A stretch of 64,000 bases of DNA from assembly GCA_009914755.4 (NCBI GenBank), contig CP086569.2, forward strand, positions 23,040,001-23,104,000, in the 5' to 3' direction. Made by a program: the position numbers and the translations under genes. Below the pieces are notes generated by a model, which ran no database searches, was not told the DNA's origin, and saw only the letters and a list, made by a program, of their open reading frames with translations. Shown one piece after another: positions 60,911 to 63,043 of the stretch (its first letter is position 1; every line of letters begins with the position of its first letter). This DNA comes from the human T2T-CHM13v2.0 reference genome, Homo sapiens.

Positions 60911-60990
60911 AACAGGATCAGTAAATTGAAAAAAGTTTTTAAATGTCAGAATAAACAATTTAAGAAACCCGTTTGATGAATCCAGATAAC

Positions 60991-61101
60991 ATTATAGTAC
61001 CTATATCCTACAGAGGAATGTTCATCCCGACTAGAACGACCATAATCACAGTATGCATAGTCTCTAGGTGGTGGAGCATAATCCCTGGTTTCTCAGGAGC
61101 G
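60991..61101 (-). pseudogene. RBMY: RBMY-family SRGY-box exon, copy A (111 bp = 37 codons), with in-frame TGA
   Basis: The minus strand reads cacacag|AAATCATCCACGCTCCTGAGAAACCAGGGATTATGCTCCACCACCTAGAGACTATGCATACTGTGATTATGGTCGTTCTAGTCGGGATGAACATTCCTCTGTAGGATATAG|gtacta. This translates as (R)[36 protein letters not shown]. The RBMY1 SRGY box is [36 protein letters not shown](S/R). The TGA (plus 61083-61085) replaces the Arg (CGA-type) codon, and 111 bp is the SRGY-box exon length in RBMY1. The continuation 'GYRYYN' corresponds to RBMY1 'GYSYHD'. Confidence 0.8.
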
Positions 61102-61476
61102 TGGATGATTTCTGTGTGTGTAAGTTTAAGCAACAAATTTTAAATTTTCAACTTCTAATATCCAAAATATAACTAAATTACAACTTAAACATAATTAAAT
61201 TGCCTAACATCTAAACAGATATTTCTCCAAATAAAATAGGGAAACGCCCAAAAAGCGCATGGAACAGATACTCATAATCAGTGGTTCAGAAAATGCATTT
61301 CAAATCCAAAATGAGATTCCAGACTTCATAAACACACTGGAATGGCAATAAATTTTAAAAAGCAGGAAAGAGCAAGTGTTTGAGAGTATGTAGATAAACT
61401 GGAACCCTGATACAACATTAGTTAGAATGAATAATTTAAGAAATCTTTTTGACAAATCCAGAAAAAGTTGTAGTAC

Positions 61477-61578
61477 CTATATCCTCTAGAAGAATGTTCA
61501 TCCCAGCTAGAATGACCATAATCATGGTATGCATAGTCTCTAGGTGGTGTCCTAGTTTCTCAGGAGCTTGGATGATTT
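61477..61578 (-). pseudogene. RBMY: RBMY-family SRGY-box exon, copy B (102 bp; 9-bp in-frame deletion), same in-frame TGA
   Basis: The minus strand reads gaacacag|AAATCATCCAAGCTCCTGAGAAACTAGGACACCACCTAGAGACTATGCATACCATGATTATGGTCATTCTAGCTGGGATGAACATTCTTCTAGAGGATATAG|gtacta. This translates as (R)[33 protein letters not shown]. The TGA is at plus 61560-61562. The exon and ~300 bp of flanking intron are a tandem duplicate of copy A (61425-61590 matches 60940-61130; 62170-62470 matches 61130-61430). Confidence 0.8.
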
Positions 61579-61596
61579 CTGTGTTCATAAGTTTAA

Positions 61597-62200
61597 GGAA
61601 GTCAGTGCGGCGATTCCTCAGGGATCTAGAACTAGAAATACCATTTGACCCAGCCATCCTATTACTGGGTATATACCCAAAGGTTTGTAAATCACGCTGC
61701 TATAAAGACACATGCACACGTATGTTTATTGAGGGCCTATTCACAATAGCAAAGACTTGGAACTAACCCAAATGTCCAACAATGATAGACTAGATCAAGA
61801 AAATGTGGCACATATACACCATGAAATACTATGCAGCCATGCAAAATGACGAGTTCATGTCCTTTATAGGGACATGGATGAAGCTAGAAACCATCATTCT
61901 CAGCAAACTATGGCAAGGACAAAAAACCAAACACTGCATGTTCTCACTCATAGGTGGTAACTGAACAATGAGAACACATGGACACAGGAAGGGGAACATC
62001 ACACACTGGGGCCTGTTGTGGGGTGGGGGAAGGGGGGAAGGATAGCATCAGGAGATACACCTAATGTTAAATGAAGACCTAATGGGTGCAGCACACCAAC
62101 ATGGCACATGTATACATATGTAACAAGCCTACACGTTGTGCACATGGACCCTAAAACTTCAAAGTATAATAAAAAATTAAATTAAATTAAAAAAATTTAA
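61597..62200 (+). mobile_element. L1PA 3'-end fragment (sense) inserted into the intron of RBMY duplicated unit B
   Basis: 'aagtcagtgcggcgattcctcagggatctagaactagaaataccatttgacccagccatcctattactgggtatatacccaaagg…cacaatagcaaagacttggaactaacccaaatgtccaacaatgatagactagatcaagaaaatgtggcacatatacacc…gggggaagggggg aaggatagcatcaggagatacacctaatg…aaagtataataaaaaattaaattaaattaaaaaaa' is an L1 ORF2 C-terminus plus 3'UTR. Unit A has no insertion at the corresponding site (…gtttaagcaacaaattttaaattttcaac). Confidence 0.9.
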
Positions 62201-63043
62201 ATTTTCAATTCTAGTATCCAAAGCATAACTAAGTTACAACTTAAACAAAATTAAAAGGCCAAACATCTAAATAGATATTTCTCCAAATAAAATAGGCAAA
62301 TGCCCAAAAAGCACATGGAACAGATACTCACAATCAGTGATTCAGAAAATGCATTTCAAATCCAAAATGAGATACCATACTTCACACACACACTGGAATG
62401 GCAATAAATTTTAAAAAGCAGGAAATAACAAGTGTTTGAGAGGATGCAGATAAATTGGAATGCTGATACAATGCTAGTTGGAATGCAAAAGGATGGAGCT
62501 ACCATGGAGAAGTGTGGTGGTTCCTCAAGAAAATACATAATTATCATAGTACCAAAAAATTCCACTCATATACACACAGAATTGAATAAGTGTATTCAAA
62601 CAAACATCATTGCATAGAAATACTGGGGTGGAAACAACCCAAATAAAATAATGGGTTAATAGCTTGTAGAAGGAGTGAAGTGCTATGATGTAAATCAGCC
62701 TTCAGGTCATCATGCAAAAGCAAAGGAGACTGATACAAAAAGTCATGTAGTGTTTGAGCCCATTAACATTAAATGCCCACAACAGTAAGTTCAGACGCAG
62801 AACACTGATTAGTGTTTGCTAGCAGCTGAGGAAAGGGAGAAAATGGAAGGGACTGCTTAACTGGTAATTGGAGTTTTAGTTTGGAGTGAGGAAAATGTTT
62901 TGGAACTCGATGGAGGTAGTTGTTGCATGACACAGCATGTATTAAATGCCACTTAACTGTTTACCTTATAATATTTCATTTTGTTATGTAAATTTCATCA
63001 CCACAACAAAAAAAAATCAACTTTTTAAAAATTTTTCCTTTAC

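What the first reader, a model, noticed from the sequence alone, without database searches (positions are those of the whole stretch)
60940..62470. Exon-plus-intron tandem duplication with a shared nonsense codon and a unit-specific L1 insertion; relative dating of events
Unit A (60940-61430) and unit B (61425-62470 minus the L1 at 61597-62200) align along ~490 bp, covering intron, SRGY exon and intron. The TGA at box position 6 is present in both units, so either it predates the duplication or gene conversion homogenised the units. The 9-bp deletion and the L1 3'-end insertion are confined to unit B and so post-date the duplication. This gives an internal chronology: nonsense (or conversion), then duplication, then L1 insertion and deletion. 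It also argues the locus was already non-functional while still undergoing the unequal crossing-over typical of Y ampliconic genes.
Basis: seen in the sequence. Interest (0 to 1): 0.5.

Follow-up and report, generated by a model that had tools for sequence, protein, structure and literature searches.

The report
Old two-box repeat in RBMY pseudogene
The repeat is real, but it is the ancient two-copy form of the RBMY "SRGY" exon, already present before apes and Old World monkeys split, and the two matching stop codons arose later at a mutation-prone CpG site, so this is an ordinary decaying Y-linked pseudogene.

Summary
Two exon-plus-intron units on the minus strand, A (60945-61429) and B (61421-62485 without an L1 at about 61598-62196), are 88.7% identical. 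Both SRGY exons carry TGA at codon 6. Only B has a 9-bp in-frame deletion and the L1 3'-end insertion.

The chronology is only partly right. A macaque Y locus is colinear with the window and has the same two units with the same junction. It has no L1 and no deletion, and both its boxes are open, with CAA and CGA at codon 6. The same junction occurs in chimp RBMY1, Rhinopithecus and gibbon. Unit trees pair window B with macaque unit 1 (100% bootstrap) and window A with macaque unit 2 (67%). So the duplication predates the ape/Old World monkey split and came before the stop codons.

The gorilla ortholog (97.2% identical) shares all four lesions, so they arose between those two splits. Each TGA is one CpG transition from the ancestral CGA. 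I favour parallel CpG decay at about 0.65. A very short gene conversion (about 0.3) is not excluded.

Nothing shows unequal crossing-over in an already dead gene. Interest is low.

The parts
60945..61429 (-). Repeat unit A, the downstream or last SRGY unit: old-L1-derived intron segment, SRGY exon and 3' intron stub.
   Evidence: Aligned to unit B. Groups with macaque unit 2 in the unit tree.
61421..62485 (-). Repeat unit B, the upstream or first SRGY unit, interrupted by the L1 insertion. Its 9-bp overlap with unit A is the junction microhomology CATTCTAAC.
   Evidence: Groups with macaque unit 1 at 100% bootstrap.
61001..61111 (-). SRGY box A exon, 111 nt, with AG acceptor and GT donor intact. 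It reads [35 protein letters not shown].
61093..61095 (-). TGA at codon 6 of box A. Macaque unit 2 and most other units have CGA here.
61477..61578 (-). SRGY box B exon, 102 nt, with splice sites intact. It reads [32 protein letters not shown].
61560..61562 (-). TGA at codon 6 of box B. Macaque unit 1 has CAA and Rhinopithecus unit 1 has CGA.
61549..61550 (-). Site of the 9-bp net in-frame deletion (DYAP becomes T) in box B. It is shared with gorilla and absent from macaque and all other units.
61598..62196 (+). 5'-truncated L1 insertion of about 599 bp: ORF2 C-terminus with two internal stops, 3'UTR and an A-rich tail. It is antisense to the gene and lies in the intron just upstream of box B. 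The 5' edge is uncertain by up to 5 bp.
   Evidence: Matches LINE-1 ORF2p residues 1154-1273 at E 4e-64. Present in gorilla at 97% identity and absent from macaque.
62337..62519 (+). Ancient, decayed L1 ORF2 fragment in the intron. One duplication breakpoint (62477-62485) lies inside it. The unit A copy at about 61281-61429 is cut off at the junction.
   Evidence: Matches ORF2p residues 1100-1158 at E about 1e-9. Junction sequences shown.
63043..63162 (-). Exon-6-like coding exon ([13 protein letters not shown]...DDGYATKER), open.
   Evidence: tblastn.
60818..60925 (-). Exon-11-like exon ([16 protein letters not shown]...). Its acceptor is AC at 60921-60922, where gorilla and macaque have AG.
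60119..60430 (-). Exon-12-like terminal exon ending ...SEKGD*SRY*.

Best explanation
What it is. The region is the SRGY-repeat segment of the 3' half of a non-processed RBMY-family pseudogene on the minus strand of a hominine sequence. The sequence is presumably Y-chromosomal. The 5' exons lie beyond position 64000.

Origin of the repeat. The two exon-plus-intron units are not a recent amplification. They are the ancestral catarrhine two-box state. One illegitimate duplication of about 480 bp made them. Its breakpoints share an imperfect 9-bp microhomology of the form (C/T)ATTC(C/T)(A/G)AC. One breakpoint lies in an old intronic L1 fragment, the other just 3' of the exon. This happened before apes and Old World monkeys diverged.

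Later decay. Much later, after the split from the macaque lineage and before the split from gorilla, the copy lost constraint and acquired four lesions: a C-to-T change turning CGA (Arg-6) into TGA in box A, the same change in box B, a 9-bp in-frame deletion in box B, and an antisense 5'-truncated L1 insertion in the intron upstream of box B. The order of these four cannot be resolved here.

The two stop codons. I judge them most likely to be independent deaminations of the same hypermutable CpG in each box (about 0.65). The part common to this view and the conversion rival, namely duplication first and stop codons later, I hold at about 0.95.

Status of each step. Shown: the shared junction, positional orthology of the units, the presence or absence of each lesion in gorilla and macaque, and the CpG nature of the change. 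Inferred: the duplication mechanism, independence of the two hits, loss of function, absolute dates and Y linkage.
For: (1) Macaque Y locus L002 is colinear with window 56018-63939 at about 87-90% identity. It holds two units with the identical junction, no L1 and no 9-bp deletion. Codon 6 is CAA in unit 1 and CGA in unit 2, and both exons are open and used in protein P0002.

(2) The same junction is seen in chimp RBMY1 (5 units), Rhinopithecus (5 units) and gibbon (2 units).

(3) In the NJ tree of units, (win_B, gor_B, mac_1) has 100% bootstrap and (win_A, gor_A, mac_2) has 67%. The A-B distance is 0.130 in the window and 0.127 in macaque. Both exceed the orthologous distances of 0.080 and 0.097.

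(4) Gorilla L001 matches window 50158-64000 at 97.2% and has both TGAs, the deletion and the L1.

(5) Across 16 units, codon 6 is CGA in 9, CAA in 3 and TGA in 4. All the non-CGA states are single CpG transitions from CGA.

(6) Of 38 macaque CpGs in 7.2 kb of aligned sequence, only 6 survive in the window. Eleven (29%) are TG and 12 are CA, and all of these changes are shared with gorilla. Two specified CGA codons both becoming TGA therefore has a probability of roughly 0.08. Given that one did, the chance for the second is about 0.3.

(7) There is no conversion signal. A Sawyer-type runs test gives p = 0.29. Of 30 polarised hominine-branch changes (19 in A, 11 in B), only the TGA C-to-T is derived in both units. 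A/B differences lie 6 bp upstream and 8 bp downstream of that T, and both are already shared with gorilla.

(8) Breakpoint microhomology is shown, and the old L1 at the junction.
Against: Two identical hits at homologous codons have an a-priori probability of only about 8%.

Unit B also carries one other state that matches unit A rather than first-unit orthologs: CCACCT against CCATCT, 27 columns downstream of the TGA (column 448). That would fit a short A-to-B conversion. However, an A/B difference (column 429) and the deletion lie between the two sites.

If the ancestor of box B already had CAA, as macaque unit 1 and chimp unit 1 do, then TGA would need two substitutions and conversion would be favoured. 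Rhinopithecus unit 1 and chimp units 2-3 retain CGA, which argues that CAA arose independently, but this is parsimony and not proof.

The 67% bootstrap for the A clade is modest.

The species of the window was not identified, and Y linkage rests on the gorilla and macaque records' names and sizes.

The macaque gene may not be fully intact, because it has a 1-bp deletion in exon 6.
Confidence: 0.65

Rival explanations
1. Short-tract non-allelic gene conversion. The duplication is ancient, as above. Only one box acquired TGA by mutation. A very short conversion tract then copied it, and possibly the nearby CCACCT state, into the other box before the split from gorilla.
For: Unit B carries two states equal to unit A within 27 columns (columns 421 and 448). 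Macaque unit 1 and chimp unit 1 have CAA, from which TGA is two steps away. Gene conversion is common among Y ampliconic gene copies (preprint 10.1101/2024.04.02.587783).
Against: No significant tract is detected (p = 0.29). Eighteen of 19 derived changes in A and 9 of 11 in B were not transferred. The concordant stretch around the TGA is at most 13 bp between A/B differences that already existed before the gorilla split. A/B divergence in the window (0.130) is no lower than in macaque (0.127), so there is no homogenisation. The units share few long identical stretches that could support conversion.
Confidence: 0.3
2. A single SRGY exon acquired the TGA first. Unequal crossing-over in an already dead gene then duplicated it.
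For: Both units carry the same TGA at the same codon.
Against: The same duplication, with an identical junction, exists in macaque with open boxes (CAA, CGA). It also exists in chimp RBMY1, Rhinopithecus and gibbon with CGA or CAA. The units are orthologous by position. This chronology would require TGA to revert to CGA or CAA in many units and lineages.
Confidence: 0.02
3. The window's two units result from collapse of a larger RBMY1-like array (4-5 units) by unequal exchange, so they are not the ancestral two-unit state.
For: RBMY1-type genes have 5 genomic units in chimp and in Rhinopithecus. Unit loss by about 550-bp deletions is reported in orangutan.
Against: Unit B lacks the 75-bp mini-L1 insertion that marks unit 1 and its derivatives in RBMY1-type genes. 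Window, gorilla and macaque L002 all have exactly two units that are orthologous one to one. Gibbon also has two.
Confidence: 0.03

Closest known systems
RBMY1 genes of great apes (human RBMY1A1-J; here chimp locus L003 encoding P0123, 497 aa)
   Same: Both have the same exon-plus-intron SRGY unit and the same unit junction inside the old L1 fragment. Both have a 111-nt frame-preserving cassette exon with AG and GT sites, and the same flanking exons 6, 11 and 12.
   Different: RBMY1 has five genomic units of about 550 bp, four of them expressed, and units 1-4 carry a 75-bp mini-L1 insertion. Its reading frame is open and runs on to ...GDSSRY. The window has two units of about 480 bp without that insertion, TGA in both, a 9-bp deletion and an L1. 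It is more distant from chimp RBMY1 (K2P 0.12-0.18) than from the macaque locus (0.08-0.10).
Macaca fascicularis two-box RBMY gene (P0002, locus L002, record CP168063.1)
   Same: The macaque locus is colinear over 7.9 kb and has two units orthologous one to one with the same junction. Its terminal stop after ...KGD is the same, and it groups with the window in the unit and exon 11-12 trees.
   Different: Its SRGY exons are open (Q and R at codon 6). It has no 9-bp deletion and no L1. It is about 10% diverged.
Gorilla 'RBMY1A1-like' locus (P0001, locus L001, record CM054581.2)
   Same: It is the ortholog at 97.2% identity. It has both TGAs, the 9-bp deletion and the L1 at the same site.
   Different: It keeps the AG acceptor of exon 11. 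NCBI models a 350-aa product that skips both SRGY exons in frame.
DAZ-repeat exon amplification in the Y-linked DAZ genes (from established knowledge and the preprint read)
   Same: This is also a tandem amplification of an exon-plus-intron unit inside a Y-linked germ-cell RNA-binding-protein gene, with copy number varying between species and gene copies.
   Different: It is a different gene family with a different unit (a 72-bp exon) and much higher copy numbers. No homology is implied.

Membership tests
RBMY gene family (member or pseudogene) | C-terminal exons homologous to RBMY or RBMX (RBM1CTR region, exons 6, 11 and 12). | tested here: met
   tblastn hits at 63162-63043, 60925-60818 and 60430-60119. 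The best database hits are all RBMY proteins, E 7e-92 to the gorilla protein.
RBMY gene family (member or pseudogene) | One or more SRGY-box exons of about 111 nt (37 aa) between exons 6 and 11. | tested here: met
   Two exons, 111 nt and 102 nt, with splice sites. They are 74-76% identical to RBMY1 box 4.
RBMY gene family (member or pseudogene) | N-terminal RRM domain. | not testable with these tools
   The 5' exons lie beyond window position 64000. The gorilla ortholog model P0001 does carry PF00076 RRM_1.
RBMY gene family (member or pseudogene) | Location on the Y chromosome. | tested here: inconclusive
   The window's origin is not given. The orthologous gorilla and macaque records are chromosome-scale sequences whose gene models are named 'Y chromosome'. 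The records' chromosome labels were not shown.
RBMY1 subfamily (functional four-box genes) | Four expressed SRGY boxes in an open reading frame. | tested here: not met
   There are only two units, and each has an in-frame TGA.
RBMY1 subfamily (functional four-box genes) | Sequence grouping with RBMY1-type loci. The working marker found here is a 75-bp mini-L1 insertion in unit 1. | tested here: not met
   The insertion is absent from window unit B. The unit and exon 11-12 trees place the window with macaque L002 and not with chimp RBMY1 or gibbon. The intron 6 tree is unresolved.
Non-processed pseudogene | Introns retained, together with disabling lesions. | tested here: met
   Introns are present and colinear with macaque and gorilla. 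There are two premature TGAs and the exon 11 acceptor is AC instead of AG. Caveat: the SRGY exons preserve the reading frame when skipped, so skipping could bypass the stops, as in gorilla model P0001.
LINE-1 (L1) 5'-truncated insertion | Homology to the L1 ORF2 3' end, followed by a 3'UTR and a poly-A tail. | tested here: met
   Matches ORF2p residues 1154-1273 at E 4e-64. The A-rich tail ends at 62196.
LINE-1 (L1) 5'-truncated insertion | Target-site duplication flanking the insert. | tested here: inconclusive
   The empty site in macaque is ...AAGTTAAAG AAACAAA TTTTAAATTTTC. The 7 bp AAACAAA cannot be told apart from the A-rich tail, and only degenerate TSD candidates exist.
LINE-1 (L1) 5'-truncated insertion | An empty site in a related genome. 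| tested here: met
   The insert is absent from macaque unit 1 and from the paralogous unit A, and present in gorilla.
Gene conversion between the two units | A contiguous tract of shared derived states longer than chance predicts. | tested here: not met
   The runs test gives p = 0.29. Only one column is derived in both units.

The most novel reading that the evidence does not exclude
The window belongs to a second, old RBMY lineage made up of the window, the gorilla P0001 locus and the macaque P0002 locus. This lineage separated from the RBMY1 type at or before the ape/Old World monkey split and kept the ancestral two-box state. Its boxes stay open in macaque but have decayed in hominines.

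A related point concerns the five-unit arrays. Those of great-ape RBMY1 and of the colobine Rhinopithecus arose independently, from different units. The apes copied unit 1, which is marked by a 75-bp mini-L1 insertion. The colobines copied the last-unit type. That would be convergent amplification of SRGY boxes.

A bolder variant is that the hominine locus is not dead. It could express a box-less RBMY-like protein by skipping the two stop-bearing cassette exons in frame, as NCBI's gorilla model does.
Probability: 0.5. Interest if true: 0.35.

Novelty: already known. Interest (0 to 1): 0.2.

Why it matters
Mainly as a correction. A stop codon shared by tandem repeat units does not date the duplication when the codon is CGA, because CpG decay can hit both copies in parallel.

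As a side result, the comparison suggests that the ancestral catarrhine RBMY had two SRGY boxes and that apes and colobines later expanded different units independently. That bears modestly on whether SRGY box number is under selection. For the window itself, this is an ordinary decaying member of a well-known Y-linked gene family.

Tried and rejected
(1) seemed to show a 5-kb tandem periodicity and an 87% 'paralog' inside the gorilla locus. This was an artefact: the file L001.fa holds both L001 (gorilla) and L002 (macaque). I redid the analysis with the records separated and withdrew the idea.

(2) The human RBMY1 genomic locus could not be fetched. Look-ups of P0006, P0121 and P0152 found nothing on record. 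Chimp RBMY1 (L003) was used instead.

(3) The first Pfam call was rejected because the translation contained stop codons. Repeated with the stops masked, the L1 ORF2 C-terminus matched no Pfam family. The PDB sequence search settled its identity.

(4) Rfam found no RNA family in 56000-64000.

(5) TRF did not report the two-unit array, because the L1 pushes the spacing beyond its period limit.

(6) Literature searches found no description of a two-box RBMY pseudogene or of this chronology. I could not assign an official pseudogene name. The window differs from the one-box human 'RNA binding protein' P0072.

(7) I did not classify the L1 subfamily, because no consensus library was available. Only the presence/absence bracket is given.

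(8) I looked for a clean TSD around the L1 and found none.

(9) I considered collapse from a larger array and rejected it on the 75-bp marker.
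Full report
1. What is in the sequence.

Window 60119-63162 carries, on the minus strand, the 3' half of an RBMY-type gene. Its parts are:
- an exon-6-like exon at 63162-63043;
- two SRGY-box exons, box B at 61578-61477 (102 nt) and box A at 61111-61001 (111 nt);
- an exon-11-like exon at 60925-60818;
- a terminal exon at 60430-60119 that ends ...SEKGD*SRY*.

Each SRGY exon sits in a repeat unit. 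Unit A is 60945-61429. Unit B is 61421-62485 and is interrupted by an insert at about 61598-62196. With the insert removed, the units align over 461 ungapped columns with 409 identities (88.7%) and 24 gap columns. Identity is 89.2% in the exon and 87.9% outside it. The repeat finder and a self-BLAST find the same blocks (E about 1e-110 for the 309-bp intron block), so this is far beyond chance.

Both exons keep AG and GT splice sites. Both read TCC TGA GAA at codon 6, with the TGAs at 61093-61095 and 61560-61562. Box B alone has a net 9-bp in-frame deletion between 61549 and 61550.

The insert translates to the last 120 residues of LINE-1 ORF2p (residues 1154-1273, E 4e-64), followed by a 3'UTR and an A-rich tail. 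It is on the + strand, so it is antisense to the gene.

2. Related loci.

A protein search with the conceptual translation returned RBMY proteins. The best hit is a gorilla model, P0001. It matches the window's exons 6, 11 and 12 almost perfectly but skips both SRGY boxes. The second hit is a Macaca fascicularis protein, P0002, with two intact SRGY boxes.

I fetched the genomic loci for both. After I separated the two records, which share one file, the picture was clear:
- Gorilla L001 17076-30941 equals window 64000-50158 at 97.2% over 13.9 kb.
- Macaque L002 12299-19902 is colinear with window 63939-56018 at about 87-90%. The only large difference is that the L1 is missing.

The three-way alignment shows that gorilla shares both TGAs, the 9-bp deletion and the L1. 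Macaque has the same two units and the same unit junction. It has no L1 and no deletion. Its codon 6 is CAA in unit 1 and CGA in unit 2.

I also fetched a chimpanzee RBMY1 locus (L003; five genomic units, one a pseudo-exon), a Rhinopithecus locus (L004; five units) and a gibbon locus (L005; two units). In all of them the unit boundary falls at exactly the same position as in the window.

3. Order of events.

An NJ tree of all 16 units groups window B, gorilla B and macaque unit 1 at 100% bootstrap. It groups window A, gorilla A and macaque unit 2 at 67%.

The A-B distance is the same in the window (K2P 0.130) and in macaque (0.127). It exceeds the orthologous distances of 0.080 and 0.097.

With the identical junction, this means that one duplication happened before the window and macaque lineages separated. 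There has been no later homogenisation.

Macaque, chimp, Rhinopithecus and gibbon units all have CGA or CAA at codon 6.

All four lesions (two TGAs, the deletion and the L1) are present in gorilla and absent in macaque. They arose between those two splits, which are conventionally put at roughly 25-30 and 8-10 million years ago (established knowledge, not computed here). Their relative order cannot be resolved with the loci available.

A rough date for the duplication follows from scaling. Window and macaque differ by 10.3% raw over 7.2 kb. Scaling the A-B distance of 0.130 to that divergence puts the duplication slightly before the ape/Old World monkey split. New World monkey RBMY proteins show no adjacent box-box repeat, which is weak evidence that the duplication post-dates the platyrrhine split.

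4. Why both boxes carry TGA.

The ancestral codon is CGA (Arg). Nine of the 16 units keep it, three have CAA and the four hominine units have TGA. Both CAA and TGA are single transitions at the CpG.

CpG decay is nearly saturated on this branch. Of 38 macaque CpGs in aligned sequence, only 6 remain CG in the window. Eleven (29%) are TG and 12 are CA, and every change is shared with gorilla. Two specified CGA codons both turning into TGA therefore has a probability of about 0.08. Given one hit, the second has a probability of about 0.3.

Gene conversion leaves no trace:
- A Sawyer-type runs test is not significant (p = 0.29).
- Of 30 polarised derived changes on the hominine branch (19 in A, 11 in B), the TGA-forming C-to-T is the only one derived in both units.
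- The identical stretch around the TGA is bounded by A/B differences 6 bp upstream and 8 bp downstream. Both differences already existed before the gorilla split.

Two points favour conversion. Unit B has one further A-like state 27 columns away (CCACCT against CCATCT). Macaque unit 1 and chimp unit 1 have CAA, from which TGA would need two steps. Against the second point, Rhinopithecus unit 1 and chimp units 2-3 keep CGA, so the CAA states probably arose independently.

I put parallel CpG decay at about 0.65 and a very short conversion at about 0.3.

5. How the duplication arose.

The upstream boundary (G|CATTCCAAC) and the downstream boundary (T|TATTCTGAC) share only an imperfect 9-bp microhomology. 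The junction reads CATTCTAAC. The upstream breakpoint lies in an ancient L1 ORF2 fragment (residues 1100-1158, E about 1e-9).

There are no long flanking repeats. The founding event therefore looks like illegitimate, microhomology-mediated duplication. This is an inference. Later expansions to five units in other lineages are in register and fit unequal homologous exchange.

6. Lineage of the locus.

Unit 1 of the RBMY1-type genes carries a 75-bp mini-L1 insertion with a 15-bp target duplication. It is present in chimp units 1-4, Rhinopithecus unit 1 and gibbon unit 1. The window, gorilla L001 and macaque L002 lack it.

The exon 11-12 region groups window, gorilla and macaque (79% bootstrap; K2P 0.085 to macaque against 0.126 to chimp RBMY1). 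Intron 6 is unresolved.

The window thus probably belongs to a second RBMY lineage that split from the RBMY1 type at or before the ape/Old World monkey divergence.

The same marker shows that apes amplified the unit-1 type and colobines the last-unit type, independently. A recent preprint notes that RBMY transcript diversity is concentrated in the 111-bp repeat exons and that about 550-bp unit deletions occur in orangutan (10.1101/2024.04.02.587783). That agrees with the unit sizes seen here.

7. Is the locus dead?

In the window the lesions are two premature stops, a 9-bp deletion and an exon-11 acceptor that reads AC where gorilla and macaque have AG.

The stop after ...KGD is shared with macaque, gorilla and New World monkey proteins, so it is not a lesion.

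The SRGY exons have lengths divisible by three, so skipping them preserves the frame. NCBI's gorilla model does exactly that. Loss of function is therefore likely in the window but not proven for gorilla.

8. Verdict.

The L1 and the deletion do post-date the duplication. The stop codons do not predate it, and nothing indicates unequal crossing-over in a dead gene.

This is an ordinary member of a well-known gene family, so interest is low. The useful outcome is the corrected chronology and the caution about CGA codons.

Limits:
- The species and official name of the locus were not determined.
- Y linkage is indirect.
- The L1 subfamily was not classified.
- No clean target-site duplication was found.
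- The human RBMY1 locus could not be retrieved.

Noticed in passing
window 60921-60922 (minus strand): The acceptor of the exon-11-like exon reads AC in the window, where gorilla and macaque have AG. This is a lineage-specific splice-site loss on top of the shared lesions.
   Followed up: partly
window 60119-60160 (minus strand): The terminal exon ends ...SEKGD*SRY*. The stop after GD is shared with gorilla P0001, macaque P0002 and New World monkey RBMY proteins, whereas RBMY1-type proteins read on to ...GDSSRY or GDLSRY. It is probably the lineage's normal stop and not a pseudogene lesion.
   Followed up: partly
L003 units at 10590-12787; L004 unit at 10555-11105; L005 unit at 12149-12706: A 75-bp L1 3'-end mini-insertion flanked by a 15-bp duplication (GAAATGCATTTTCTG) marks unit 1 of RBMY1-type genes. 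It is present in chimp units 1-4 but only in unit 1 of Rhinopithecus and gibbon. Ape and colobine five-unit arrays therefore grew from different units, independently.
   Followed up: partly
L003 12623-12736: The fourth of five genomic SRGY units in chimp RBMY1 is a pseudo-exon with two in-frame stops (RG*AY*DY). It is left out of the 497-aa product.
   Followed up: no
window about 37206-42322 (+ strand): A near full-length L1 with an open 338-aa first ORF and several long ORF2 pieces. Its 3' end (41748-42322) is 89% identical to the L1 fragment inserted in unit B.
   Followed up: no
window 63895-63977: A 39-bp unit repeated about 2.1 times (92% match), lying in the intron upstream of the exon-6-like exon.
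   Followed up: no
L002 about 13085 (macaque exon 6): Macaque exon 6 has a 1-bp deletion relative to the window and gorilla, and the model P0002 carries an odd segment (QASLEELALSCVTW) there. The macaque gene may not be fully intact, although both its SRGY exons are open.
   Followed up: no
L001 10001-20941 (gorilla gene model P0001): NCBI predicts a 350-aa protein from the gorilla ortholog by splicing exon 6 directly to exon 11, which skips both stop-bearing SRGY exons in frame. No expression data were available to test this.
   Followed up: no
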